Assembly (NCBI GenBank): GCA_003614675.1
Contig: ML002222.1
Span: forward strand, 55,810-75,809
Source: Dimargaris cristalligena
Taxonomy: Eukaryota
DNA length: 20,000 nt
Direction of reading: 5' to 3'
Below, piece after piece: positions 1 to 18,316 of the stretch. A program made the translations under genes and the position numbers. The notes beneath the pieces are model-generated. The model searched no databases, had not been told where the DNA came from, and saw only the letters and a list, made by a program, of their open reading frames with translations. Positions within the stretch are counted from its first letter, which is position 1; every line of letters starts with the position of its first letter.

Positions 1-886
1 GGAACGGTAAGTCTGGCTACAGTAGAATAGCACGGTGGTTAGTCTCGAGTCACTAAGTTCAGTTTAGATGAGTGATTACTATTATACACACACACACACA
101 CATATATATATATACAATACTGGTAAACCACTGACTCGGGCTTTCCAGACAGTTGAACCAACACCCCTCTTCCGAACTGCTTTATCAACCCTAATCAAGG
201 CACTCCATACCCCACTCGCTTCACACAATCCCTACTTACTAGATTCATCTCCGATCCGGACATTTGCTCCCGAATCCGGGAGTGCTTCACGGGTCTGTAC
301 CCCCTGGACTCCACCCCGGCCGGCCGGCAGGCTCTCCAGCAAGCCTTAGCCACGCCTGAACGGTTTGTATTGAAACCCCAGCGGGAGGGCGGGGGCAACA
401 ATGTCTACGGCCATGATATCCCTAGCTTCATTCAGACCCTGTCCCCGAAGGAACTTGGGGGATATATCCTTATGGATCTCATCTGCCCACCACCCACGAG
501 TAATATTCTCATCAATCAAGGCCAGCTGCACCACGGACCTGTAATTAGCGAACTTGGTATTTTCGGTGTCTGGTTGAGGTAAGACCACCGGCTTAGTTAG
601 CGATGACCAATAGCATCAATGATGTGGTGATGGTACCCCCGCAACTACAACAAGACCAGCTAAAAAAGGTGTACCTTGTGCTTCATGAATTAACCCAGTC
701 TTTATTATCTTATACATTATATCTAATTTGTCCCGGATACTTTGATTGCCCCTCCCCTCTAGTGACGCCAATACGGTCCATTTGAACGCGGAAGCGGGCC
801 ATCTATTACGTACCAAAGTGGCATCATCCAACGAAGGAGGAATTGCGGCCGGTTTTGGGGTTATCGACAGCCCCTTGCTAATTTAA
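1..886 (+). CDS. GSH2: Glutathione synthetase (eukaryotic ATP-grasp type), 3' part; join(<1..6,243..578,763..886)
   Basis: Spliced translation reads ERFISDPDICSRIRECFTGLYPLD...PERFVLKPQREGGGNNVYG...YILMDLI...VISELGIFGVWL-SDANTVHLNAEAGHLLRTKVASSNEGGIAAGFGVIDSPLLI*. It contains the KPQREGGGNN glycine loop, SELGIFG and the GHLLRTK..EGG.AAG C-terminal motifs. Introns 7..242 (GTAAGT..TAG) and 579..762 (GTAAGA..TAG) keep the frame. Confidence 0.96.
86..114. repeat. (CA)n(TA)n compound microsatellite in GSH2 intron
   Basis: Run of AC repeats followed directly by TA repeats, read from the sequence. Confidence 0.9.
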
Positions 887-1255: not shown

Positions 1256-3756
1256 TTATTGTTTGGGAGGGGATGAAGATAACGATTCCACTATTGCATT
1301 TCTATCTGTGGAGATCGTTGGGAATAAGCACTCACCTATTACAATGCAAGTATTCGTACATAAATGATTTCATTACTGGGCTACCATGGCATCCAGTGTG
1401 TTTTGGATATTGGATGGAACTGCACTACGCTGGCTATTTAACGTATCCCATGGCTGGCTGGGTTAGCCAGTCGACTATTTTTGCCATGAAAATCGGAGGT
1501 ATTCAGCAACCGCGAGCCCTTCCGCTTACGCAATAGAGTAGCACTAATGCCGTGGTGCAACCGGGCCAAAATATCTCTCCCTTCGGGATACTGCCTGTAT
1601 TTTCGCAGGGCCTGTCCATCATGATTTCACGGGCTTTCGGTGGTGAGTGGTGTGCTTCCCTCTTGTTATTCTAACCTCCTCTTCCTCCCCCGCATTCACA
1701 CCCACTTGACTACCCCACCCATACTAATTCGGTTCTGCCTACGGCTCTGACTTGAATGACCCAGCAAGAGGATCTGGGTTCTTTCTCCCTATAATAGCAC
1801 CGCTACAGTGGCGTAGCAGCGCAAGCAGATGACCTAACCCAAGGACCAGGCATGGGTGGTGGCGGAGCTACTGAATGCTGTGGTATGGTAGGTAGACTTG
1901 GCTTAATCGGTAGGCGTACCTTGACCTACATTGGCATGTAAATTATAAATGAGAATACCGATATTATTATTATTATCATAATTGTTGTTGTTATTCTCGG
2001 GACCCTCCGGTGGTAATTGAAAAATAGGGAATATTTTAACTCTTACTAATGCTATCCCCAAAATCCGCCCGAATTCCGAATATGGATGAAATTGATGGAC
2101 ATAGTGATGGTAAGTAAGAATGTAACGCCTGCATAGCGTCGCACCACGCCTCCATCAGGGATTAGTAGTCAGACAACGGATCAACGAGCTAATTTCCGGA
2201 AGCCCGTAAGGTAAAAATGGGATTGAGTGGGTCTCGTGCTGTAATCCTAGAAATTGGGGAGGGGGTTGCCATCGGTCCTATCAGCCTTGGTGAAAGCGGC
2301 GAGACAGCTGATACCCAACGTGGGCCAGGGGCAGCCATGCCATTAGTGTGTAATAGGAGGATGAGGAGGAGGACTTTAGTTGGGGAGGGTGTGCCTGACT
2401 ATACCATAGGCAATGGAATAAATCAAAGTGGAGGCGAGGGGATATGGGTAATCTGCGTGGCGAGTTCCCCCAGCCAGGGAATGTGAGCCCCCCCCCTAGG
2501 TTTGGCCAGGAGATATAAGCGCCCCGTGCCGCGGAGGTGGCCATGGAGAGGGCGACTACAACATTCTGGAGAGAAAGGAGGGTTGGAAATAACAACCACT
2601 GTGACCTGTACCAGCAAAGACCGTCTGTCCCACCATAACCATCTTCGGCTAATTAGGCTTGCTTATAATGTACCTTTGGGGCTGGCGGAGCGGACTTCCC
2701 CTTCCTATGGGGCCGCACTATACCTATTTCCGGGGACCCCTTTATAAAAAGGGTGGGTTGAGACGGGTGATGCTATTGATTTACACTGCAGCTCCCCGCG
2801 TCTATTGCGGCCCCTTACTCTGTCTTAAACCGGTGGTTTATTATATACCCAACCCACCACCACACCCCATGGAATAGGCCGGGCCACTGAAACGTGTCCA
2901 TTTGTCCGCGCCCACCTTTGGGCCATTAATTCTATTCTATTAATCTTTGTATTAGCCTTTAGTAGTGGCCTCTTGGTGATGTGATATACCCTCCCATCCT
3001 TTCATATCGGCCACTACAACTAACCGCTCCCTTTCGCGCCCTGCTCTTTTTATTATTATTATTATTCGCCTTGACTCCCTACCATCTATTAATATTACAT
3101 AGTCCATCATTATTATTCCATTTTCATACCCAATTCCTTTATTTTTAGATATCCCTGAGGAGGTTCATTTGACCTGCGCACTGGCTTCACAGTGGCTGCC
3201 CCCTGGTGTTTCTCCATCCCCACTCCTTCAGTTCGGTCACAGGCAGGGTGGTTGATGCCTAGACGGAATATCTGCATTAGATAGTCAAGGGTGCCGGTGG
3301 GCGAGCCCGTTATTCAATCCAGCCATGTCCTGGTTTCTTTTACACTGATTATCTCTTCCTTTTAATATCTACCCCATTATCTTTTAGCCGACTATAGCGA
3401 TAGAGGACATCGTTAGCTCATAACCACCCCCCCCCCCGCTCTGCTCCAAAACCCCGCTCCCATAGATAGTCACCGTTTTGTGTCTTGTTATCGTATCGTT
3501 CGACTTATTTTAGGTTTAGCTATTTATTCTACCCTCGTTCTATCTCTCTCTATTTTTACCTATTCCTTCCGTGTTCACCTATTCTCCTTCCTTTCCCGCA
3601 CTTCACTGGGCTACTCTAGTATTGCTTTTGACGTCAGGACATACCTCGCCTGACCCCCGTCTCCTTTGTCACACACGGTGTCACCTGTGCAGTTATCGCG
3701 GCCATCGAACACCTTAAGCACGCCAGAGGCGAACTCTCCCATCTTGCTACTTGGCT

Positions 3757-3850
3757 ATGCGGTCGCGGGCTTCTTTACTACCATGGGTCCTCTGGACCCT
3801 GGTGATGTATACTACACACTCGGCCAGCGGGCTGCCCGCTTTCCACACTC
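3757..3850 (+). other. Probable first coding exon of the ATPase, encoding a signal peptide
   Basis: MRSRASLLPWVLWTLVMYTTHSASG-LPAFHT has a basic n-region, a hydrophobic core and an A-S-G cleavage-like site. Donor GTAAGT at 3851 is phase 1 and matches acceptor CCTTAG ending at 4456 (C|CT = Pro, then NQYDLDGNQCP). Confidence 0.75.
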
Positions 3851-6800
3851 GTAAGTTTGCTGATTGTTTTTTATTTGATCATATAGGGAGGGCTATTATT
3901 CACTACCGCCTGGTCCCTGGCTCAGTAATGATGGTACATCTTAGTAATCCTCTGTACCTTGGAGATTAAAAGTGAATATTTTGCCGTCCAAATGGCGGGG
4001 TGAAGAGTCGCAAGTATCACTCTTTGTGATCTTGTAATGGACTGGAACTCCCCTCCCAAAGGGTCGAGGCCAAGTATGCGGAGTTAGGCCGGCGATACTA
4101 TTTGTTGTGCTACGCCAATCGCTGGCTGAATCCCCCCTTCAACTAGACCATTGTGATATATATATATATATATATATATATCTCCAGGTTCCTCCTAAGG
4201 GGGGATGGTGGGCGTACACTATTCCTTACGGGCAACTAAGCTACATGTCATGATGGGTGGGTATGGCTCCTTTTTCGCACCTCCTCCGGTTGGACAAGAG
4301 AAAGAGGAGCTTGGCCGCTCCAATAACCGCCGTCATTTAACTAATTCCATTTAACCGCCAATGATTTTTTGGTGTATCTTCTTGTCCTACACTCACCCAC
4401 CCACAACGGCTTCCGCTTCCACCATGGGGCCCTCCTCGCCTCCTTTTCTACCTTAGCTAACCAGTATGATCTCGACGGTAATCAATGCCCACTGTACCCC
4501 AAGCGGGACGTCGTTTGTCCCCTCGTTTGCGTCACTGACCTATCGGAATGCCCCCGTTTACTTCAGCCCAACTGCCCCAACGGCAAGCAATTTTGCCTGG
4601 ACAGCACCTGTGCCGACCAATGCCCCAAAGACCTGCCGAACCCCTGCTTATGTGGCGAAACCAGCTACCGCGACAGTGGCGAAATGGTAATCCCCTGCCG
4701 GAAATCGCCCACCATTGACATCCCGCACTATAATATGCGCAACGGCACGGCCCAAACCCAAGGGGCGTGTCTCAAGGCCCTCAACACCACCTCCCGCATC
4801 TTAAATTATGGGGCTAAACCCACGGACCCCGTCTGGTTGGATTGCTCCCGCCGGGGATGGAACGAAGATGGTGATTCAGACGCCACCGAAACGACCCCCC
4901 CCGGGGTTTACCTACGTGGAGCCCATTTGGTTGGCGCTGTGGACCATGCTGGGGTTGGAGGCCATGGTGCTAACTGGGTGGACCCTGTACAAACAGTGGC
5001 GGGAAAAGGCGCAGCGTCGGGGCGTCGGGGTGGCGGTCGGGGGAACAACCGCGGACCCCCTGGCGAAGGAAACGGCCGATTCGGAGCTGAGTTCCGTGGA
5101 AGGGTTGGATCGGGAAAATTACAAACTCACCGCGTATCGAACCTCACTCTACGGCAATTTCGCCGCGTACTCGCTAGTCGCCATCAGCTTGAGTCTGGTC
5201 GTTTACATGTTCCTTATCATTGCCGATTATTACGGCGCTCTGTTAGGTAAGTATCGAAGGGCATATTCCCTAGGGTATTATTGCCTGGCTGGGTGGTTTT
5301 TGGGATATCAACTTTCCGGTGGTTTAATTTTTTTTTGATGAGCTCATCTAACCTTAATGTGAGCTAACCCTGCCCCTTCGTGTACTAATCTCCTCCCCCA
5401 TATGATTTTATCTGGCTCGAATTGTTCTCCCTTGGCATCGCTGGTAATGAACATTTAGGCGAAGCGTTTGCCCTAACCCACCAGACCTCGGCCTTGTCTT
5501 CGCAGCTATTTATCATATCTTGGTATCTGATGGTGGCTTGGTTCATTACGCTGAACATTACCCGCCACCGGTTGCGCAACTTCTTTCGTATCCAGACCCG
5601 TCCGGCAGAGGGCCATTTTATTCAAGTGGAGCAGCAATTAGCACCCCTAATCTTGCTGGATGACAACAGTGTGATTCTTCGACACATTCGTCGAATTGAG
5701 ACCTCCATCAAATCATTGGTTGGGTAAGCATCATCTTAAAGCTATACTTAATGTGATAATCATAGTATTGGTAAATACTGCCTTCAACTCGTATATACGG
5801 CTTGCCCCGTACTATTCAACCCCCTAATCAATCACGGTCTTTATTGAATTGAATAATGTCTGTTATTATTTTATTAGCTGGCACGTCCATGTCACAACCA
5901 CTCGAATCGAAAAGACCGCCCATGGAAGACGCTACTTCACCTACCAATGCACCCGCTATGTATACGACTCGGTGCACGGTCGGTTCGCTCCCTTCGGGTT
6001 CCAGGTGGGGACCACGGGCGCGGAGCTCCTCAAACAACAGTCGGGTATTCTTCAAGGGGAAGCCGACCGTAGGATTGAGCTACTCGGCTCGAATTTCATT
6101 ACGGTGGCGGTGCCCTCCTTGTTCAATGCCATCCTGCAGGAATTCACCGGGTTCTTTTACCTCTACCAACTCACCATTCTATTGCTCTTCTATTATTACG
6201 CCTATTACGAAATGTAAGTCGCTCTCCACAATCGCCTTCGCGTATCACCTGTAAATCCACGTATCCCCATGGATTACATTGTTGGATTTTTAATATTACC
6301 CGCACCCCAATATCCAGACTAACTGTATACTATCTTTTGTTTCGGATGGCCATTTTTATTTACGGTTGATATTCCCATATTTTTGCATCATTTTTAGCGG
6401 TTTGGTGGATACCGGTGTGGTACTGATCTCAGCCTTCGTCAAGGTTGCCATCCGCTTACAATCCGAAAAGCGCCTTAAATCCATGGCCGAACACGAAAGT
6501 ACCTGCCAAGTACTCCGGGACCAAACCTGGCGCACCACTACCACAGCCGACCTAGTTCCCGGGGACGTGTACCAAATCGACGTGGACCAGGTGGTTCCCG
6601 CCGACTCAGTTGTTCTCTCGGGTAATATTGTTGCCGACGAGAGTTCGTTGACGGGCGAGCCCCTACCGATCCGTAAATTCCCGGTTTCCCTGGATATGAC
6701 TGATTTTGACCTGCACACCACCGGCAAGACCAACGCCCTCTTCGCCGGCACGACCATCTCGCAGGCTCAGCTCGAACTCCACTCTAGTCGCTGTACTGCC

Positions 6801-9238
6801 TTGGTGTACCGCACGGGAACGGCCACCGACAAGGGCCAACTGGTTCGTAAGATTCTGTTCCCTAGCCCCGTATCGTTTGTATTTGACGAACAGCTCAAGA
6901 TCGTCATGATGATTCTCGCCCTCGAGGGCCTCTTCATGTTTGGACTTAGTCTCTGGCTCCAGCAGCAGAATATTAACGCATCTTGGTTCAACGGTATGTT
7001 CTGTTTGGCCCAAATCATCAGCCCCATTTTACCCGCGGCGCTGGTCGTGGGCCAGTCGGTGGCGTCCACCCGGCTGCGCAAACAGCAGATCTATTGCGTG
7101 GATCTGCCACGCATTATGGTGGCGGGCAAGACGCAGATTTTCTGTTTCGACAAAACGGGCACGCTGACCAAAGAGGGCCTCGATTTCTACGGGGTCCAGT
7201 GCGTCCGGCCCACGCTGGAGGGTATCGTGGACAGTGCCCCCCCGGTTTGATAACCGCACGGAAGATTTCCCCGGAGTGCCCCGCCTCATGCGCCTGGCGA
7301 TGGCGTCATGCCACGCCGTGACGGAACTCAATAACCGGCTCATTGGCAATCCCGTGGACATTGAAATGTTCCGGGCGACGGGGTGGGACCTCTGTCACCC
7401 GGACAACCCCGACTGCCTTGACATGGCCGTGACCGCCAACGAACGGCTCCTGGTGCTCCGGCGGTTCGAGTTTGTCCACGCCCGCATGTCCATGTCGGTC
7501 GCGGTGCTCGATACCTCCACCCACCACGTGCATATCTTCGTGAAGGGTTCGTTTGAGAAAGTGCGCGACATGTCGGACCCGGGAGGCCGACCCGCCGATT
7601 ATGACCGGGTGACCAGTCAGTTGGCCCGGGAGGGCTGCTACGTGCTGGCGGTGGCCCACCGGGATTTGGGGCCCGTCGACCCGGACTTAATCCGGACGTG
7701 GAGTCGCGAGGATTTTGAAAGTCACGTGGTGCTGCTAGGCCTTATTTTGTTCAAGAATAACCTTAAAACGGACACGGCCGACGCCATGGCGGAACTGAAA
7801 CAGGGGTCGACCCGTACCGTCATGATTACGGGGGACACGGCCCTAACGGGAGTGTACATTGCCCAGGCCTGTGGCATGACCCCGTCCGGGGACCGGATGT
7901 TGCTCGGCGACATCGAGATGGACAACCCCCCTCCTGATGGCCGCCCCTCCGACGAGGACGGCCCGGCGGAAACTGCTTATGAAGTGGTCTGGCGGGACGT
8001 GGACACCCACGAAGTAGTCGATGTGAATCGCGCGCTCCTCGCCAGTGTGACGATGGACTCCAATGCCTTGTCCAGTACCCTCGTGGGCAAGGCCGGTCCC
8101 CCGCAGGTCGGCCAGGGCCTCGAATTGGCCGTTACCGGCCGGGCCTTTAACGCTTTGGTCGAGCGCGACCTAATCCGGGAATATTTGCTGAATATCCGGG
8201 TGTTCGCCCGCATGACGCCACAGGACAAGGTTGCGTGTGTGCAACTCCACATGGAACGGGGTATCACGGCCATGTGCGGGGACGGCGGCAACGACTGCGG
8301 GGCGCTCCGGGTGGCCCACGTGGGCATTGCGCTGAGCGAAGCCGAAGCGTCCATCGTGTCACCGTTTAGCACCAGCGTACGGTCCATTTATTCGTGCGTG
8401 GAACTCCTGCGCCAGGGTCGGGCGGCACTCGCTACGTCGTTCGCGGGTTACAAGTACCTCATCCTCTACGGCCAGACCATGGCCATGCTCAAGGCCAACT
8501 TTTTTTACTTCCAAGGGTCCATCGCCCAATCCCTCTGGATTTTCGTCGATGCGTTCATTACCATGGGCATGACCGCCTGTTTGGCCCTCAGTAAAGCGGC
8601 CCCCCCGGTTAGCCCCCCAACGACCCACCGCCCGCCTGCTGGGCATCGAAACCCTGACTTCTACGGTGGGGATCGTTCTCATCAACTGGCTATTTTTGGT
8701 CGGTGGGTACCTATGGCTGTACCAACAAACCTGGTTCCGCTGCCACGAATTCGACGCCCGTGGTATTGATATTGCCAAATGGTGGCTGTTGGGCGACAAC
8801 TACGAAAGCGCCTATTTGGCCTTTTTGACCATGTTCCAGTTTATCAACAATGGGGCGATTTTCAATTTCGGCTACCAGTTCCGGCAAGCCTGGTGGCGTA
8901 ATTACAGTCTGGTGGCCGTGTGGGCCGCATTTATTGCTATGATGAGCTACGTCGAATTAGCCGACCCGAACCGGCTGGGCTGTCTATTCCGCTTGAATTG
9001 CGGTAATCCCAAGGTTTTGGAGGAACTGGGCTTCCCCCGCCCCACGTTCGATATCGAACCGTACAATATTGACCAGGGCCACAATGTGTTCCCTCGGTCG
9101 GCCCGGTTTTGGCTATGGAGTTACAGTATCGCCAATATGGCTGTTGGTTTACTATGGGAGAGGGCCGTGGTGTTGGGACCTCTCCGTACGTTATTGCGAC
9201 GACTGTACCCCCAGTCTCGCCTGCAATTGAAACTGTAA
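3757..9238 (+). CDS. P5-type (P5B-like, ATP13A/Ypk9-related) P-type ATPase with N-terminal signal peptide and Cys-rich domain; join(3757..3850,4457..5246,5459..5723,5878..6213,6398..9238), three +1 frameshifts at about 4900, 7240 and 8603
   Basis: Motifs seen: DESSLTGE, CFDKTGTLT (phospho-Asp), ASCH, KGSFE, MITGD, VFARMTPQDK, MCGDGGNDCGAL, GIALSEAEASIVSPF, GRAALATSF. All four introns are GT-AG (donors GTAAGT or GTAAGC) with compatible phases. Removing one C at each of the three C-runs gives a 4323-nt ORF (1440 aa). Exon 1 is my inference from a signal-peptide-like sequence and a phase-compatible donor. Confidence 0.9.
4156..4181. repeat. (AT)13 microsatellite in ATPase intron 1
   Basis: Perfect AT run followed by CTCCAG. 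Confidence 0.9.
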
Positions 9239-10013
9239 TCTTTTTTCTTTAATACATTTTTTTAAATATATTTATCGTATGTCTTGTCTAGTGGAATTAT
9301 ACCAGCTGGAATACTATAATTCCCGCTCTCGTTGTTATTGCTGTTGTTTCTTCTATACTATATTATAAAGCGACCTCCTTGCATATGCTTAATCTACACC
9401 AAACCCCGTGATCTGGATATGACTATAGTAAAGAGTAGGATGTTCATCATCCGTGTAACTCATCGTGTCTCCCGAGCGAAGGTCCCATGTTGAGCGTCTA
9501 ACTACAGTCAATTATGAAAGACCCTCCCTAAGAATCGGGCACCTGGGCTAAGCAAAATGTATTATCCGAGTTTCTAGTCCGTTAAGGTCCATCATATTAC
9601 AAGACACGGACATGAAACCGAAACCCGCCTAGGCCATTAAGGATAGTGTATATGTAGAACACTTCCACTCTCATAATTAATATCGCAACCCAACAATTAG
9701 CTTGTAAAAAAAACACGAAAATGTCTTCACCATAACATTTATTTGGCAATGTCTCAAAACAATGGACGACATATTGTTGAATAATATATATATATATTGC
9801 AGAGACGAGACCGTAGCAACCCAACTTCCGATAAGGGTTGCGCAGGTGAAGGGACACGCGAATAGAGCGGAAGAGGATTGCCCCCCCCCCGGGACTAGTC
9901 GATCGGATCGGAGGAAGGGATGTGTGTGGATGTGAGGGGAGGAGGGGGGACGAGGCAAGGGTGTGGGGTGGGAGATGTGAGGGGAGATCTGCCGAATATT
10001 AGACAATCGACGC

Positions 10014-10595
10014 TTAGACTTCCATCAGTTCACGGAGACGACGGACGGTCGACCGGACGGAGTTGGCAGCGGGGGTACTGTTGGGGGGTTGAAGTGGAAG
10101 GAGGAAAAGGAAGGATATAATATTATATTAGTTTCGGATGAGACAGTGGGGTGTTTTTCGATCCGATCCTGAAGTAATGAAGCTCGATCTAGTCGCCGTT
10201 GTACTCGGATTCAGAGGGCCTGATTCCGCGATCGGTCCCACGGATCTGGCCGTTTCGAGGTGCTACTAACTAGTGGCACTGAACCACCGACAGCGGAAGG
10301 GGAGATAGCCGAAACCGTTAGTGGCAAAAATAAGGACGAGAGAGTAAGGGAGGGCGAAGGGTAGGGTGGGGTATACTTACGCGAGGGTCCAGGCACCGCC
10401 GGCGACGGTCTTCTTGCAGCCACGGCACTTCCAGATCCCGACGGCGGAACGCTTGATGGCGTCCTTACCGCAGAAAGAGCACTGGTAACGGGCGTGCTGG
10501 GTCACTTCCATCTTCTTGATCTGCTTACGCAGGGAAGCACCATACCGCACACCGTATTTACCGGTGATACCGACTTTAGCAGTACGCTTGGCCAT
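10014..10595 (-). CDS. RPL43: 60S ribosomal protein eL43 (L37a/L43); complement(join(10014..10077,10381..10595)), 92 aa
   Basis: [92 protein letters not shown]. The C4 zinc finger is intact. The 303-nt intron runs GTAAGT..ACTAAT..CAG. Confidence 0.98.
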
Positions 10596-11258
10596 TGCAG
10601 AAGATTTCTTTTTTGCTTCGTTCGAAACGACGGTGAAGGGGCGAAAGAAGTGGGAGGAGGTGTATGACACACGAGAGAGTGATGGTCAAGGAGAAAGAGA
10701 AGGATCGATCCGGGCTGACGATCCAAGACGGGCACAAGTACACCTCTCTGGTCTCCTCGGGCTAGGCGCAAACTCCCTCGCCCTGGCTTTCTCCTGCCAA
10801 AAACCCTTTCGCTCACCTAACTGACCCATATTGAATAATGTGTGCGCCGCCCCACCATGGGACATGGGTGGTATCAAATTGCCTACAATTTTTTTCCCTG
10901 GCGAAAAAAACTGGGCGGGTTGGGTTGGCCTGCTTAATTAGAATCCCCATGTCTCATCATCCACGTGACCTATATTCCCAATCATTATCAGCCATGGTTG
11001 TGTCATTTCCCCCACCTAATAATAAGTGCCCAGAGGGGCAAAGTGCTTCACAATACCAGCGGACTCGAAAGTGAGGTAGAGCAGGAGGAGAGGAGAGATT
11101 CAGCAATGATCCGCCAAATGAAGCCGATGGGACCCAGCACAGAGCAATGCGTGTGCTATAATTCCTCCCCACCCTGTGCACATTAAGCGATCTATGCATA
11201 TTCTCTGTTCCCATAGTCAGTATTACTTTTGTCTCTAGACTCCTTCACACACACCAAC
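10596..11258. promoter_or_regulatory. Divergent (putative bidirectional) promoter region of RPL43 and MRPL35, with a GTCACGTG E-box (Cbf1-type) at 10962..10969
   Basis: The head-to-head ATGs are separated by 663 bp. CACGTGAC on + equals GTCACGTG on -. A/T tracts lie at about 10888-10910. Confidence 0.55.
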
Positions 11259-12758
11259 ATGCGCTGTCGATTCCCCACTCGTCCGCTCACGGCTCTGGTA
11301 CGTCGCTATCGGATTCAGGACCGAAACCAATAGACCCCAACACCGTTGGAATCCTCCAGTCCCCTGGTATGGAATTCCCTTTGGATTCCTTGCACTTAAG
11401 CAACACCAGTAACAGTAATAACTGATAATACCCGCCTATGCATATCCTATACCTTACACCCTCCTATTACACGTCACCAACAGACCCTGCAGTCCCAAGC
11501 CTCGCTAAATTCAGCCCGGCAGCCCGGCCTTGGTGCCCGCCGTTGGCTAGCGCAGAAAGTCGACATCCTGACCGAATCCGAATCTTCGTTCCAGGCCCCT
11601 TCTTTGAAGGCCAACCCGGCGTATGATGCCGCCATGGAGTTCTTGGCCAACCACGAAAAAGACGAACTGACCCAAGCGGAACGGATTAAGGAGTCGGTCG
11701 CAGCACTTCGCAAAGGTTCGTTAGTTGATCAAATCATTCCAGACAGATATGCCCAATGGTGAAATAAGGGATTTCGTCTAGTAACTATATATAACAAACA
11801 TACCCTGTGATTAATTCCTTGGACTTATTTATTTGGCTCGAAACACCCCAATTGCATTCGCTACATCTTCTCTGCGTGTACCCACCCACACACACACATA
11901 TATATATATATAGGCACCCCTAGTCCATCGGCAGAGGCTCAGATCCAGGCCGCTGAACAAGAAGCCTACAATCACGAAGTGGAGGCCGAAATTTATAGCG
12001 CGGAGACCCTGTGGAATTTCAGTCACAACAAGGCTGACCTGAACGTGCCCGTCTACCACTACCTGGCCCACCAGCAGTTCCAGACCGAGTACCTACCGAT
12101 CCTGACGCAACGGATCACCCAAATGTTCGTGGTACCCGACGTTCTCCCGCCCAGCGCGGTCCGCCCCGAACTGAAGCTCCAGTTGACGTATCCGGCCGCC
12201 CCGGAGACCCCGTTTACCGCGGGGGTCGTTTTGGAACCCAAGCATACCCTCGAGACCCCCACCGTGTCCGTGGTCCCTTTCCACCAGGATACCCGGCTCT
12301 ATACCCTCGTCATGGTGGACCCCGATCACCCGAACCAAACCACCCAGCGTTACGAAGAGCGCTGCCATTGGTTGGCCACCAACTTGGCCCTCAGCGTGTC
12401 CATTGCCTCCCCCGCCACTTTTGACACGGTCCTCCCGTACTTGCCCCCCCACCCGGCCCAAGGGTCTAAGCGGCACCGCTATACCTTCCTGCTCCTGGAG
12501 CAGCCCAACGGCGGGCGGGACCGTCTGGAGGTCAAGTTAGCCACCGAATCGCGGGACTTTAACACCCGTAGTTTCTGCGCCGAGCACGGGTTGGCCGTCC
12601 GTGGCATCACCTTTTTCCGGGCCGAGTACGACGAGTCGGTCAGGGGGGTGTATGAGAATATCCTGGGCACCCCTAGTCCCTGTTACCAGGCCTTCCCGTA
12701 CATTGATCCTCGCGTTGGCCCCGACGGCAAGATGATCAATCGTTACAAATACTTCTAA
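11259..12758 (+). CDS. MRPL35: Mitochondrial large-subunit ribosomal protein mL38 (PEBP family); join(11259..11297,11484..11715,11914..12758), about 371 aa
   Basis: The Arg-rich, acid-free N-terminus (MRCRFPTRPLTAL-TLQSQASLNSARQPGLGARRWL) resembles a presequence. It is followed by NPAYDAAMEFL, then PVYHYLAHQQF..ILTQRITQMFVVPDVLP. The PEBP core reads YTLVMVDPDHP..HW..YLPPHPAQGSKRHRYTF. Introns are GTACGT..CAG and GTTCGT..TAG; the exact intron 2 borders are ambiguous. Confidence 0.9.
11887..11912. repeat. (CA)n(TA)n compound microsatellite at the 3' end of MRPL35 intron 2
   Basis: The repeat runs directly into the TAG at 11911..11913. Confidence 0.9.
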
Positions 12759-13847: not shown

Positions 13848-16800
13848 TTAGGCCAGGTTTTGCAGCACCGAATTGACCTTAGCCAGCTGGGCGGGTTTCA
13901 GCTGTTCGTCGGCGTTAGCCTGGACACTCTGCAGAATACCCTTGAGTTGCGGGAGGTGGGGCTGCACGGCGGGGTGACCTTCAGCGATCAAACCGCACAC
14001 GAAGTCGTAAACGGGCTCATTTTCGGCGAAATCGGCCTGGAGGGGCAAGTGACGCACCAGGGTGCTGAGGATATCAGGGAGGGGCACGGCGGCCAGATCC
14101 TTCATGGAAATGCGGGCGAGAGCACCACAGGCATTATCTAGGAGATTCTTGGCGTTGCGGTGACGGTCGGCCTGGGCAAAGATGGTGTGCAGGGCACCCA
14201 GGACGGCGTTGACATCAATGGGGGCGCTACCGGCGGGGGCGTAGAAGACCAGGGCACCCACGGCGAAGGCGGCGTTGCTCTTCACTTCGGGGTCGGGGTC
14301 GGCCAGGGCCTGGAGGAACAAAGGAAGTAGGTCACCGACGAAGGGGGCACAGCCTTCCTTGAGGCCGGACACGGATTCGCCCAGGCAGCCAATGGCCATG
14401 GACCGTTCGGGCACATCCTCATTGGCGGTGTAGTAGCCAGCAATAAAAGGCAGGAACACCTGGAAGTAGGGGGTGAAGTGGGGGCCCAGCACCAAGCACA
14501 GAGCGGCCACTACATCGGCGGCCCCACCGGTAAGTACGGCGTCCCGCTTCTGCTTGTCCTCGTCGTCCAATTGGTTATCTTCATCCGCATCATCTTCCTG
14601 GCAGAGAGCCTTCTTCTGCAGAATGTTGCCCAGTTCATTACAAAGGGCGGTCAGGTTGGCATCGGGACTCTGGGAGCTGGCCGATAGGTCAGCGGCCGAG
14701 TCGGCGGAACCGGCACCCAGGGACTTGTACACCAAGAGAGCGGGGCCCATAGTCTTGAGAGCCTGGGTCAATTCGACGCAGATTTGGATCACGACGCCCA
14801 CCACCTCCTCTTCGGCCCAAACGGCCATAACGGCGGGCATGACAATCTGGATCAGCTGGGCCAGAGTCTGGTTCACGGGAACCTGGACGGGCCAGCCGGC
14901 CACCCAAGGGGCGTTACCGGAAATGCGGTGGAAAGTGAGCAGGCACTTGAACAGGGCCCCGACGACCGCCGTACGGACGTGGTCGGCATCATGGTCGGCC
15001 AGCTTAACCAATTCCTGGATGGTAGCTTCGGCGTAGGGCAAGAAGTGGGTACCGGTGTTGCTGAAGATCTCACCCAACACGTCGGCAGCCACCTCCTTCT
15101 CGTCGGCCACGGCGGTATTGACGTAAAAGTCGTCTTCCTGGTCGGACAGCAGCTCCTCTTCGTCGTCCTCAAGGGCCGCAGTGACGGCGGCAGTCCCCTC
15201 GATATCGGTGGTACCGTCGCCGACCTGGATGCTCTCATCGACTCGGCAGCTCTGCAGAAGCGGGGGAACGACGAACTGGAGGTAGGGGGCAAAGTCATCG
15301 CCAAAGACCTCGCTGATGGTGCCGAAGAAGAGGAAAGTGCAGTCACGGAGACGGCCTGAGCTCAATTCCAGGCCCTCCAGAGCCAGCTTCATGAAACCCT
15401 CGAGGTGGGGAGCAAAGACTTCCTTACCCACGGCGCTGGCGATCACCCCCACGGTGTCAACGGCAATACCGCGCAGGGCAAAGTCGTCCTCCACGGTGGA
15501 GACGGTGAATTGGTGGCGCATGCGCTGGATAATGTTGTCGAAGTAGGGCAGGAAGGCGGAGCCAGCGGCGTTGGCGGCACTACCCAAGGCCCCGGTGACG
15601 GTGATCTGGATCTTGACGGGAGCGGTTTCCAGCAGGTGGGTCAAGCCATTGATCAGAGTGGGCAGGTATTCCACCACCACGGTCGAATCCATACCCTCCA
15701 GGATAGCGTCGAGGGCATTGCACGAGTATTTGATCACATCAGTGTGGGCGTCACCCATCAGGTTGAAGATAAGGGGCAGGAGGGTGGCGTGGTGTTCGGC
15801 AATTTCCTCCTCGAAGTTTTCGGCGAATGAGCCGAGGGCCATGCAGGCGGCGCGGCGGACCGAGATGGCGGGGTCCTGCAGACCGGCCACGACCAGACGG
15901 ATCAAGTCGTTGATCTTGTCGGTAATAAGGTCAACGGAGGGCTCAATCAATACGGCGAAGCTCAGCATAGCGGCCTTGCGGAAGGAAGGAGTGGGGTTTT
16001 GCATATACTGCAGCACCAATTGCATAGTCACGGGGAAGACGGCCGAGGCGGGCAGGTAGGTGCCCAAAGAAGATAGCGTGGTGAGGGCCACCTTGCTGGC
16101 ACTATCGTCATCATCGTCCTCATCATCACTATCGTCGGCAGACTGATCCTGGGCATCGCCGTCTTCGGAGGGCTCGGCAATAATGGGCATAAGGGCCTGG
16201 ATCAAAGGGGTAACCAGCTTGAGCTTCTGCAGCTTACTGCGCTTGAACATGGTGGCCATGGAGATAAAGGACAGGGCCATGCTGCGGATGGAATCGGGGT
16301 ACTGGCGGTTCCCGGCGACGGTCATGAAGAACTGGACGAGATCGGCAAAGTGCTTGGTCAACAGAGGAGTCTCCAGAACCAGCAGCGAATCAAACACATC
16401 GAAACCGTGGCTGACGCCCTCCTCGTCGCCGTTGCTCAGGCAATCCTCAATGACATTGACCATAGCCGGCACCAGGTCCCGGAAGGTCTTGACGTCCTCG
16501 GTATTTTCGGGTTCGAGGAACTCGGCGACCTTACCGAGGGCCTGCAGGGTAGTGACCCGCACGGTACGGGACTCGGGGTCGCGAATGGACTGGGCGAACA
16601 AACCGAACAGTTCGGCCAGGGCCTGGGAAGTGTTCTGCAGCTCGCCGTCGGCGATGACTTCGAACAGGGTGTACAGCACGTAGATACCGGTTTCCCGCTC
16701 GCTGGTCTGGGCGCTGCGGCTAAGCTGGAACAAAAAGGGGAGCAGCTCGGACCATTTGCCCAGGTCCTGGATCACTTCGGCAATGGCCGAGATGACCCGG

Positions 16801-17117
16801 GACAAAGCGTGCCGTACGGCGGCTTCGGGATCCTGGACGACTCGCTCGAGAAGGTGTTTCTGGATAGAGACCTGCAGCTCGGTGGGCACTTGCACCCACT
16901 GCTTGATCACCCGCTTACGGAGCTCGACGGCCGCCAGCTGGCGCAGCTCGGGGGCCGCGCCTTGGCTGGCGATCTCGGTCAGAGCGGGGACGCTGGCGGG
17001 TTGGCTATAGAAGTCCTTGTTCAGAGTGGCGGTCAGCGAGAGAATCTCCTGGGTGTCGGTGGCCTTGATAAACCGCTGGAGGGCTTCGTTCAAGCTGGCG
17101 GTGAATTGGGGGTCCAT
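13848..17117 (-). CDS. KAP123: Importin-beta family karyopherin, Kap123/importin-4-like, intronless, 1089 aa
   Basis: N-terminal IBN_N-like segment (LRQLAAVELRKRV..W) followed by HEAT repeats (VRRAACMALGSFAE, SCNALDAILEGM, ERSMAIGCLGE, VKSNAAFAVGAL, DNACGALARI) and acidic loops. Length fits Kap123/IPO4. Confidence 0.88.
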   Translation of the reverse strand: MDPQFTASLNEALQRFIKATDTQEILSLTATLNKDFYSQPASVPALTEIASQGAAPELRQLAAVELRKRVIKQWVQVPTELQVSIQKHLLERVVQDPEAAVRHALSRVISAIAEVIQDLGKWSELLPFLFQLSRSAQTSERETGIYVLYTLFEVIADGELQNTSQALAELFGLFAQSIRDPESRTVRVTTLQALGKVAEFLEPENTEDVKTFRDLVPAMVNVIEDCLSNGDEEGVSHGFDVFDSLLVLETPLLTKHFADLVQFFMTVAGNRQYPDSIRSMALSFISMATMFKRSKLQKLKLVTPLIQALMPIIAEPSEDGDAQDQSADDSDDEDDDDDSASKVALTTLSSLGTYLPASAVFPVTMQLVLQYMQNPTPSFRKAAMLSFAVLIEPSVDLITDKINDLIRLVVAGLQDPAISVRRAACMALGSFAENFEEEIAEHHATLLPLIFNLMGDAHTDVIKYSCNALDAILEGMDSTVVVEYLPTLINGLTHLLETAPVKIQITVTGALGSAANAAGSAFLPYFDNIIQRMRHQFTVSTVEDDFALRGIAVDTVGVIASAVGKEVFAPHLEGFMKLALEGLELSSGRLRDCTFLFFGTISEVFGDDFAPYLQFVVPPLLQSCRVDESIQVGDGTTDIEGTAAVTAALEDDEEELLSDQEDDFYVNTAVADEKEVAADVLGEIFSNTGTHFLPYAEATIQELVKLADHDADHVRTAVVGALFKCLLTFHRISGNAPWVAGWPVQVPVNQTLAQLIQIVMPAVMAVWAEEEVVGVVIQICVELTQALKTMGPALLVYKSLGAGSADSAADLSASSQSPDANLTALCNELGNILQKKALCQEDDADEDNQLDDEDKQKRDAVLTGGAADVVAALCLVLGPHFTPYFQVFLPFIAGYYTANEDVPERSMAIGCLGESVSGLKEGCAPFVGDLLPLFLQALADPDPEVKSNAAFAVGALVFYAPAGSAPIDVNAVLGALHTIFAQADRHRNAKNLLDNACGALARISMKDLAAVPLPDILSTLVRHLPLQADFAENEPVYDFVCGLIAEGHPAVQPHLPQLKGILQSVQANADEQLKPAQLAKVNSVLQNLA

Positions 17118-18316
17118 GGTGCAAAAACTGAATAGGATGGAGGCGCACTCGGCTGGGGACAGGTTGGAGAGGAAAAGGAGAAAAGCAGCGGAGTGTAGAG
17201 AGGGATCCGGTGCTGGGGGGTGGATAGGCTATATATTATTAGGCGGGGGTATATAAAGAAGGGGGTATATGGCTGAGTGAAATAGAAGCAGGGCTTGGGG
17301 AGACACCACAGGAACAGGGGATACTGAATTGAATGGTTCAATAGGAAAAAAAGACCGGGTGAATACGTGAAAATTGGGTGAGTTGCAAAGCGGTAAAATC
17401 AACCACTGGCACCGAAAAATGCAGAGTAGTCGTAAAAGCGACACAGCAGCCCAGGCCAATGTTCCTCCTATATACCAGAATAAAAGGTATTGAGCAGAAT
17501 CTATCCTTTTTTCTATTCCATTTTTTTTTTGTAAAAAAACTAGTTGGAGTACATATTATTATCATGCGGTCTAGGGAGGTGTGCGACGCAACAGCAGCCC
17601 CTTTACCATGGACCAGTAGTGACACAGCGAAGAGGGCGGACAATCATTGAAAAAAATATATATTTAAAGAAGTGTGTCCACAGCCGTCGTCACAATGCCC
17701 CCCATTCGACTAAAAAACCCAGTCAAGTGAAGGGGAGACCACCGCTAACGAGAGGGCCTACTGAATAGCACTTATACAAGTAGAGCTGATTCCAAATGGC
17801 AGTCGTATAAAGAGTGCAGCCGCTATTGGAGTTGGTATGAATTAGTAGGTGGTTCTAGCCCCTTTTCGGCACCTGAACTGGGCCAGAAGCCGACGCAGTA
17901 CACGGACGGCCGAACAATACGGGTGAAATTCGGCCCAGCTGTATAGAGTTTTAAATGATACGTGCACTGGAAAATAGGCGGGATGAGTATTTTCAACTAG
18001 CAGTATTTGCCTCATACCGGATTTTTTCGTTACACAGCATGACTGAACTCCTCCCATGTGTATAATGTCATTCGAATAGCCCTACATTTAGGATGACTAG
18101 AATCATTCATAGGGCCGTGTCCTTGTGTTAAATATTTAGATTATATTAAATGGCATGCTGGTGGTCACTGGATGCCACAATAGCCACATACTTAATAGCA
18201 TTTATGGGCACAACTTCCTACTGAATAGATCACCCATAAGCAAGTCAAGCTTTTGGGACTTGTCTATTTAAATAAATTAGTCCAAAATTGATAGGTGCTA
18301 TTCTAAAGTCAGGGTG

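What the first reader, a model, noticed from the sequence alone, without database searches (positions are those of the whole stretch)
4894..8610. Three same-direction +1 frameshifts in the P5 ATPase, all at one Pro-Pro slippery-like motif
Seen: the ORF breaks at ACC CCC CCC GGG GTT (4894-4908), GCC CCC CCG GTT TGA (7236-7250) and GCC CCC CCG GTT AGC (8599-8613). The last two share the 12-mer GCCCCCCCGGTT in the same codon phase. Skipping one C restores TTPPGFTYVEPIW, DSAPRFDNR and KAAPRLAPQRPTARLL, and the catalytic motifs are otherwise intact with no other stops. Comparable coding runs not followed by GG do not break frame: C7 at 12444-12450, C6 at 7926-7931 and 8613-8618, G6 at 12643-12648. 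Established: CCC-N and CCG are +1-prone codons, characterised P5B ATPases transport polyamines, and polyamines control +1 frameshifting in antizyme and eIF5A-dependent Pro-Pro translation. Inference: the most likely cause is a systematic homopolymer over-call in the C(n)GG context, possibly linked to CpG methylation. The alternatives are polyamine/eIF5A-sensitive recoding of a transporter, or slipped-strand pseudogenisation/phase variation. Three serial shifts would need very high efficiency, which argues against recoding.
Basis: partly seen in the sequence, partly recalled or inferred. Interest (0 to 1): 0.72.

Follow-up and report, generated by a model that had tools for sequence, protein, structure and literature searches.

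The report
Assembly errors break intact pump gene
The three apparent frameshifts in this fungal membrane-pump gene are each one extra C wrongly added to a run of C's in this assembly, and the gene itself is intact, so the finding is ordinary.

Summary
A five-exon P5B-type ATPase gene (3757-9238, + strand) changes frame by +1 inside C8 (4895-4902), C7 (7237-7243) and C7 (8600-8606). Each run is followed by GG.

The extra bases are not supported by other data. Contigs built from four public runs were laid on 4400-9300. They lack one C at 4895 in 4 of 4 runs, and at 7237 and 8600 in 3 of 4. These include one run from a different study, which spans the gene in one 18-kb contig. No other insertion or deletion was listed in the 4.9 kb.

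Removing one C per run gives one 1440-codon ORF. It matches a deposited 1415-aa Dimargaris cristalligena protein (P0121) over 1408 residues, apart from two substitutions. The model that fits the window's DNA (P0122) is named "LOW QUALITY PROTEIN" and jumps the breaks with tiny false introns.

Recoding and fixed pseudogenisation are effectively excluded. Real tract-length variation among cells is not fully excluded, because run X1 keeps two of the extra C's.

This scan reached a similar verdict on another genome (e1-1490907).

The parts
3757..3850 (+). Proposed exon 1: start codon and signal-peptide-like N-terminus. It ends one base into a codon, before a GTAAGT donor.
   Evidence: Sequence. 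Joined to 4457 it gives ...PAFHT-P-NQYDLDG, which parallels PIFNTPNQFGLDG in P0124 and PVFHTPNLYGVDG in P0142. The join used started 3 nt early; the exact join was used. Both deposited models use a different donor at 3801. No RNA evidence.
3851..4456 (+). Intron 1 (606 nt, GTAAGT...TAG). It contains a (TA)n repeat near 4158-4181.
   Evidence: intron ends; sequence.
4457..5246 (+). Exon 2: Cys-rich N-terminal domain, then the first membrane segments. It contains break site 1.
   Evidence: No Pfam family for the N-domain.
4895..4902 (+). Site 1: C8 in the window, C7 in all four runs laid.
   Evidence: table 4: one letter left out at 4895 in X1, X2, X3 and X4.
5459..5723 (+). Exon 3.
   Evidence: The intron before it is 5247-5458 (212 nt, GTAAGT...TAG).
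5878..6213 (+). Exon 4.
   Evidence: The intron before it is 5724-5877 (154 nt, GTAAGC...TAG).
6398..9238 (+). Exon 5: actuator domain, M4 (SPILPAAL), DKTGT, nucleotide-binding and phosphorylation domains, C-terminal membrane domain and TAA stop. It contains break sites 2 and 3.
   Evidence: The intron before it is 6214-6397 (184 nt, GTAAGT...TAG).
7237..7243 (+). Site 2: C7 in the window and in run X1, C6 in X2, X3 and X4.
   Evidence: table 4.
8600..8606 (+). Site 3: C7 in the window and in run X1, C6 in X2, X3 and X4.
   Evidence: table 4.

Best explanation
The gene is an intact, intron-bearing P5B-type (ATP13A2/Ypk9-like) P-type ATPase of the mycoparasitic fungus Dimargaris cristalligena. 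The window's assembly carries one C too many in three C-runs that are followed by GG. Each extra base shifts the frame by +1 on paper only. The cell translates an uninterrupted mRNA of about 1440 codons, with no recoding. Shown here: the shorter run lengths in other read sets, the restored ORF, and its identity to an independently deposited protein. Inferred: the extra C's arose during library amplification and/or pooled assembly. Illumina read-level indel rates in homopolymers (up to 2%, PMC3334598 abstract) are too low to give a majority call, yet one run (X1) carries two of the extra C's in its own contig.
For:: contigs of four runs were laid on 4400-9300. One base is left out at 4895 in 4 of 4 runs, and at 7237 and 8600 in 3 of 4 (X2, X3, X4). 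X4 comes from a second study, spans the whole stretch in one 18,252-base contig at depth about 209, and differs from the window otherwise by only 4 listed substitutions. No other insertion or deletion is listed. Of the 9 homopolymers of 6 or more bases in that stretch, only the three C runs of 7 or more are affected.

the spliced CDS as it stands in the window has 34 stops. With one C fewer in each run it is one ORF of 1440 codons. This ORF equals P0121 over 1408 residues except A/V and T/I, and those two changes correspond to the X4 substitutions at 6108 and 6502.

P0121 (named by NCBI as a D. cristalligena hypothetical protein, 1415 aa) is 100% identical over the 451-aa query and reads straight through all three sites. 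P0122, which fits the window's allele, is named 'LOW QUALITY PROTEIN'. It skips about 49, 13 and 25 nt around the three runs.

10 of 10 full-length relatives align without a gap across site 3, and all carry the F/Y-T/S-Y/F-x-E motif directly after site 1.

sites 2 and 3 share an identical 12-mer, and all 3 coding C6+GG sites in the window are the broken ones. This points to a context-specific technical error.

Context: a published D. cristalligena genome was made by phi29 amplification of 1-100 sorted cells, HiSeq 2x150 sequencing, read normalisation and pooled SPAdes co-assembly (PMC6784888, section 'Single-cell genomics pipeline' read). I did not establish that the window or the coded runs come from that work.
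Against: Run X1 keeps the window's C7 at both 7237 and 8600, in a contig at depth about 130. The longer form therefore exists at majority level in at least one read set and is not purely an assembler slip. X1, X2 and X3 are marked as possible sources of the window, so they are not independent of it. X4 and P0121 share two substitutions, so they may be one data source and should count once. Contigs drop rare variants, so none of the runs shows whether a minority of molecules carries the other length. I saw no raw reads and no RNA. The cause of a C(n)GG-specific over-call is not explained.
Confidence: 0.9

Rival explanations
1. The tract lengths really vary among nuclei or cells of this coenocytic fungus through slipped-strand mutation at C-runs. 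Some nuclei would then carry a frameshifted, sheltered null allele of the pump, and the assembly happened to pick those forms.
For:: X1 (sample S1) and X2/X3 (sample S2) carry the same organism label and study code. They differ at two of the three runs and at nothing else in 4.9 kb. [quoted passage not shown] Homopolymer indels are much more frequent than substitutions (recalled), so 2-3 indels with no substitution is not absurd for a sheltered allele.
Against: The window's C8 at site 1 is in none of the 4 runs, so at least two independent lineages would each have to hit the same gene. All three changes are +1, and all are in the same C(n)GG(TT) context, with two in an identical 12-mer. That looks technical rather than mutational. 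As far as I recall, real slippage in long runs gives mostly deletions. The deep run X4 assembles only the intact form.
Confidence: 0.07
2. Programmed +1 ribosomal frameshifting at Pro-Pro (CCC/CCG) sites, possibly sensed by polyamines, is needed three times to make the pump.
For: Polyamine-controlled +1 shifting in antizyme is recalled, not tested here.
Against: The DNA of 3 of 4 runs and the deposited protein P0121 need no shift. All 10 aligned relatives are deposited as continuous proteins through the sites. Three serial shifts would multiply their inefficiencies. No RNA holder was available to test it directly.
Confidence: 0.01
3. The gene is a fixed pseudogene in this strain, decaying at mutable C-runs.
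For: There are three frame breaks in one gene in the window.
Against: Apart from the three bases, the 1440-codon frame has no stop, and all catalytic motifs searched for are present (DKTGT, TGEP, TGDT, GDGGND). The other read sets with the same organism label lack the breaks.
Confidence: 0.02

Closest known systems
Single-base homopolymer length errors in draft genome assemblies
   Same: The errors are confined to homopolymers, each is one base long, they are contradicted by other read sets, and the corrected length restores a conserved ORF.
   Different: The data appear to be short-read based, where such errors are rarer than in long-read or flow-based data (recalled). All three errors are over-calls in one context, C6-7 followed by GG. 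One run reproduces two of them at majority level.
P5B P-type ATPases: human ATP13A2 (polyamine transporter) and fungal Ypk9-type pumps with solved structures (7fjq, 7m5v, 7op1)
   Same: The TIGR01657 score is above its cut-off (632.8 against 618.25). The best solved relatives are ATP13A2 (about 350 bits) and a fungal P5B-ATPase (about 334 bits), ahead of P5A pumps (218-257 bits). DKTGT and GDGGND are present.
   Different: The M4 motif reads SPILPAAL where ATP13A2 has PPALPAAM. The protein also begins with a signal-peptide-like segment and a roughly 145-aa Cys-rich domain that matches no Pfam family.
Polyamine-regulated +1 frameshifting of ornithine decarboxylase antizyme, and yeast +1 sites (Ty1, ABP140, EST3) (recalled)
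   Same: Only the direction of the apparent shift, and a loose thematic link to polyamines.
   Different: Those shifts are encoded in every genome copy and conserved in orthologues. Here the shift is absent from most read sets and from all aligned relatives.
Phase-variable poly-G/C tracts of bacteria
   Same: A C-run inside a coding region has a length that differs between samples (X1 against X2/X3).
   Different: This is a eukaryotic housekeeping-type gene. Three tracts are all shifted the same way, and one tract length is unsupported by any run. No evidence separates biological from technical variation.

Membership tests
Homopolymer over-call (assembly or library artefact) | Other read sets of the same organism give a different run length at the site. 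| tested here: met
   4 of 4 runs are shorter at 4895. 3 of 4 are shorter at 7237 and 8600, and X1 agrees with the window at those two.
Homopolymer over-call (assembly or library artefact) | The alternative length restores a full conserved ORF. | tested here: met
   stops fall from 34 to only the terminal stop. The ORF is 1440 codons and equals P0121 over 1408 aa apart from 2 substitutions.
Homopolymer over-call (assembly or library artefact) | The differences are confined to homopolymers. | tested here: met
   table 4: the only three indels listed in 4901 bases are at the three C-runs.
Homopolymer over-call (assembly or library artefact) | The same error recurs genome-wide in the same context. 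| not testable with these tools
   No whole genome is held for the window, and read laying is capped at one call. Within the window, 3 of 3 coding C6+GG sites are affected.
Programmed +1 ribosomal frameshift | The interruption is present in the genomic DNA of the organism. | tested here: not met
   it is absent from X2, X3 and X4 at all three sites, and from X1 at site 1.
Programmed +1 ribosomal frameshift | The shift site is conserved in orthologues. | tested here: not met
   all 10 relatives are deposited as continuous proteins across the three sites. These are predicted proteins, not proven ones.
Programmed +1 ribosomal frameshift | Shifted product or ribosome pausing is shown. | not testable with these tools
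   No RNA holder was listed, and there are no proteomic data.
P5 / P5B P-type ATPase | The family profile scores above its curated cut-off. | tested here: met
   TIGR01657 scores 632.8 bits against a cut-off of 618.25, on P0121.
P5 / P5B P-type ATPase | The phosphorylation motif DKTGT and the hinge motif GDGxND are present. | tested here: met
   DKTGT at residue 746 and GDGGND at residue 1122 of the restored product.
P5 / P5B P-type ATPase | The M4 signature is PP(A/V)LP for P5B, against PP(D/E)LP for P5A (signatures recalled). | tested here: inconclusive
   SPILPAAL aligns with PPALPAAM of ATP13A2. The LPAA part is P5B-like, but the first Pro is Ser. Close relatives show SPLLPAAL or SPILPAAL.
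Phase-variable homopolymer tract | Tract length varies between samples for biological reasons. | tested here: inconclusive
   X1 differs from X2/X3 at two tracts. Contigs cannot separate amplification error from real variation.

The most novel reading that the evidence does not exclude
The C-runs are genuinely unstable in vivo. A fraction of nuclei in this coenocytic mycoparasite would carry +1 alleles that silence a polyamine-pump paralogue. This would be a eukaryotic, heterokaryon-sheltered analogue of homopolymer phase variation, and run X1 would have caught one such lineage.
Probability: 0.05. Interest if true: 0.45.

Novelty: not a real feature. Interest (0 to 1): 0.06.

Why it matters
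The finding matters mainly as a correction. The gene is whole, and the deposited model on this DNA is damaged by false mini-introns. The corrected structure is given here: five exons and about 1440 codons, with a new first exon. The same C(n)GG over-call may break other genes of this assembly. Frame breaks at such runs should therefore not be read as pseudogenes or recoding without checking reads or the second deposited protein set. There is no new biology in the frameshifts themselves.

Tried and rejected
1. Whole-genome count of C(n)GG breaks. No genome is held for this window, so this could not be done.

2. RNA evidence. No RNA holder was listed, so nothing can be said on expression.

3. 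An alternative start at ATG 4361 with a miscounted T6 (4365-4370), which would put a signal-like peptide in frame with the Cys-rich domain. I dropped this once exon 1 at 3757-3850, with a GTAAGT donor and the acceptor at 4456, gave a junction peptide that parallels relatives.

4. Short introns as the cause of the frame changes. The candidate GT..AG pairs around sites 2 and 3 would be 13-20 nt long (my reading), whereas the real introns are 154-606 nt. P0122 uses such jumps and is flagged low quality.

5. Earlier notes of this scan. Searches for frameshift or homopolymer notes in this genome gave nothing. A word search gave only other genomes.

6. Literature on a Cys-rich N-terminal domain of fungal P5B pumps. 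One search (five terms, 12 papers held at least four terms, 10 listed) showed no title or abstract on it. This is not proof that it is unpublished.

7. The M4 signature in PMC5837089. A find for PPALP and PPELP gave 0 occurrences, so the signatures stay recalled.

8. Contig breaks and loose ends of X1-X3 near 5291-5373 (tables 7 and 8). They fall at different places in each run and are absent in X4. They may be amplification chimeras, and I did not pursue them.
Full report
WHAT IS IN THE SEQUENCE

The window is eukaryotic and no whole genome is held for it. The coding blocks are separated by introns that begin with GTAAGT or GTAAGC. The 12-mer GCCCCCCCGGTT occurs at 7236 and 8599 and nowhere else in the window. 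None of 200 shuffles gave two matches.

Three-frame translation and tblastn with three full-length relatives place a +1 frame change at each run. At site 1 both frames remain open from 4808 to 5250, so only homology shows that break. At site 2, TGA TAA follows immediately.

WHAT THE GENE IS

A 451-aa stretch between sites 2 and 3 (7246-8598) finds P5-type ATPases of zygomycete fungi. Among proteins of near length, the best hits are at 60-61% identity, to Dimargaris cristalligena and Tieghemiomyces parasiticus. Among longer proteins there are two much closer hits:
- P0121, 1415 aa, named a D. cristalligena hypothetical protein, is 100% identical.
- P0122, 1338 aa, named 'LOW QUALITY PROTEIN ... 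[Dimargaris cristalligena]', is 95% identical.

Earlier notes of this scan had already called the genome D. cristalligena, and one search agrees.

P0121 scores 632.8 bits on TIGR01657 (P-ATPase-V), above the cut-off of 618.25. Its best solved relatives are human ATP13A2 (about 350 bits) and a fungal P5B-ATPase (about 334 bits), ahead of P5A pumps at 218-257 bits. Pfam finds E1-E2_ATPase.

THE DECISIVE TEST

Five public runs hold the stretch, and none is on record as RNA. I laid contigs of four of them on 4400-9300.
- One letter is left out at 4895 in X1, X2, X3 and X4.
- One letter is left out at 7237 and at 8600 in X2, X3 and X4, but not in X1.
- No other insertion or deletion is listed.

X4 belongs to a second study. 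It covers the whole stretch in one 18,252-base contig at depth about 209, and it differs otherwise by four listed substitutions (6108 C>T, 6502 C>T, 7845 A>C, 7908 C>T).

One search lists nine homopolymers of six or more bases in the laid stretch. Only the three C-runs of seven or more are affected. The unaffected ones are C6 at 7926, C6 at 8613, T9 at 5328, T7 at 8500, T6 at 9241 and T7 at 9257.

X1-X3 are marked as possible sources of the window, so they are not independent of it. X4 is the independent set.

RESTORING THE FRAME

I mapped P0121 and P0122 onto the window and derived five exons: 3757-3850, 4457-5246, 5459-5723, 5878-6213 and 6398-9238. The introns are 606, 212, 154 and 184 nt long.

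Read as it stands, the spliced CDS has 34 stops. With one C fewer at each of the three runs it is a single ORF of 1440 codons. From NQYDLDG onward it equals P0121 over 1408 residues, apart from A/V and T/I. Those two changes are the coding effects of the X4 substitutions at 6108 and 6502. P0121 and X4 may therefore reflect one data source and should count once.

P0122 carries the window's allele at the one of these two positions that it covers; it skips the other. It jumps over the three runs (4830 to 4880, 7220 to 7234, 8589 to 8615) and has six further small in-frame skips. This is what a gene caller does when it meets a frameshift.

RELATIVES ACROSS THE SITES

I aligned P0121 with ten full-length relatives from Dimargaritales, Kickxellales, Basidiobolus, Mucorales and Zoopagales.
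- Site 3 is gap-free in 10 of 10, with (R/K)L...RPTA(R/Q)(L/I)LG just after the run.
- Site 1 is followed at once by the conserved F/Y-T/S-Y/F-x-E-P/K...W/F membrane segment in 10 of 10.
- Site 2 lies in a variable loop. Similarity resumes just after it: 8 of the 10 relatives have Phe in the column of the Phe that follows the restored Pro-Arg.

Both sides of each break are therefore under selection in one reading frame.

WHY THE ERROR AROSE (inference)

Illumina indel rates rise in homopolymers but reach only about 2%. G-rich motifs such as GGG and CGG lie upstream of error-prone positions (PMC3334598, abstract and passages seen). That rate cannot give a majority call, yet X1's own contig carries the longer form at two sites. 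The extra base must therefore already be common in some libraries.

One published D. cristalligena genome was made from phi29-amplified sorted cells (1 to 100 per well). It used HiSeq 2x150 sequencing, read normalisation and pooled SPAdes co-assembly (PMC6784888, section 'Single-cell genomics pipeline', read). In such a design, an early slippage event in one low-input library could dominate a locus. I did not establish that the window or the coded runs come from that work.

The window's C8 at site 1 is in none of the four runs laid, which also points to a pooled or assembler-level choice. All 3 coding C6+GG sites in the window are the broken ones. The one coding C7 not followed by GG (12444-12450) lies inside a continuous PBP-domain match.

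RIVAL EXPLANATIONS

Real tract-length variation among nuclei or cells is not excluded. X1 differs from X2/X3 at two tracts and at nothing else, and cell-to-cell polymorphism has been reported for this species (PMC6784888, passage). Against this reading:
- Three of three changes are +1.
- All three share one sequence context.
- One of the lengths is unsupported by any run.

I give it about 7%.

Programmed +1 frameshifting fails its first defining test, because the interruption is not in most of the DNA. Fixed pseudogenisation fails for the same reason.

VERDICT

The feature is not real biology. A comparable verdict was reached by this scan on another genome (e1-1490907, not checked here).

SIDE RESULTS

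These are given under Noticed in passing: a corrected first exon, a conserved signal peptide plus Cys-rich N-terminal domain on this clade of P5B-like pumps, and an unusual M4 motif.

Noticed in passing
window 3757-3850 and 4457-4893: The pump appears to start with a signal-peptide-like segment and a roughly 145-aa domain with many Cys residues (13 Cys in the first 178 residues of my model). No Pfam family matches it. An exhaustive search found 67 representative proteins with this domain. The match starts within the first 114 residues in all 67. Thirteen of them are 1100-1492 aa long, and four of those (P0202, P0208, P0217, P0238) are also in the P5-ATPase hit list. A lumenal or extracellular N-domain on a P5B-type pump may be undescribed. 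One literature search showed nothing on it.
   Followed up: partly
window 3757-4457: Both deposited gene models (P0121, P0122) use a donor at 3801, with different start codons. A GTAAGT donor at 3851 and the acceptor at 4456 give a junction (…PAFHT-P-NQYDLDG) that parallels Tieghemiomyces and Ramicandelaber relatives. No RNA evidence is available.
   Followed up: partly
window about 7020-7045 (M4 helix): The M4 motif reads SPILPAAL where human ATP13A2 has PPALPAAM. Close fungal relatives have SPLLPAAL or SPILPAAL. The first Pro of the PPxLP signature (recalled) is replaced by Ser in this clade.
   Followed up: partly
window 5291-5373, also 4543-4572 and 4929-4958: Contigs of X1, X2 and X3 branch or end with unlike loose ends at different places in each run, while X4 runs straight through (tables 7 and 8). 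This would fit library-specific chimeric molecules, but I did not examine it.
   Followed up: no
window 2488-2496 (C9), 3427-3437 (C11), 9881-9890 (C10 followed by GGG): These are long C-runs outside the laid stretch, and I found no coding sequence at them. The ORF over the third has no Pfam match, and the other two were not scanned. If the over-call is systematic, their lengths may also be wrong.
   Followed up: no
window 157-579 (+), 10380-10685 (-), 11811-12755 (+), 13851-17228 (-): The neighbouring genes are a glutathione synthase fragment (PF03917), ribosomal protein L37ae (PF01780), a PEBP-domain protein (PF01161) and an importin-beta/IPO5-like protein (PF25780 and HEAT repeats). I saw no frame breaks in them.
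   Followed up: partly
P0122 mapped on window 6497-6513, 8046-8116, 8779-8810, 8890-8909, 9013-9023, 9097-9128: Besides the three jumps at the C-runs, the deposited low-quality model leaves out six further short in-frame stretches. These stretches are present in P0121 and open in the window, so the model is faulty beyond the frameshifts.
   Followed up: partly
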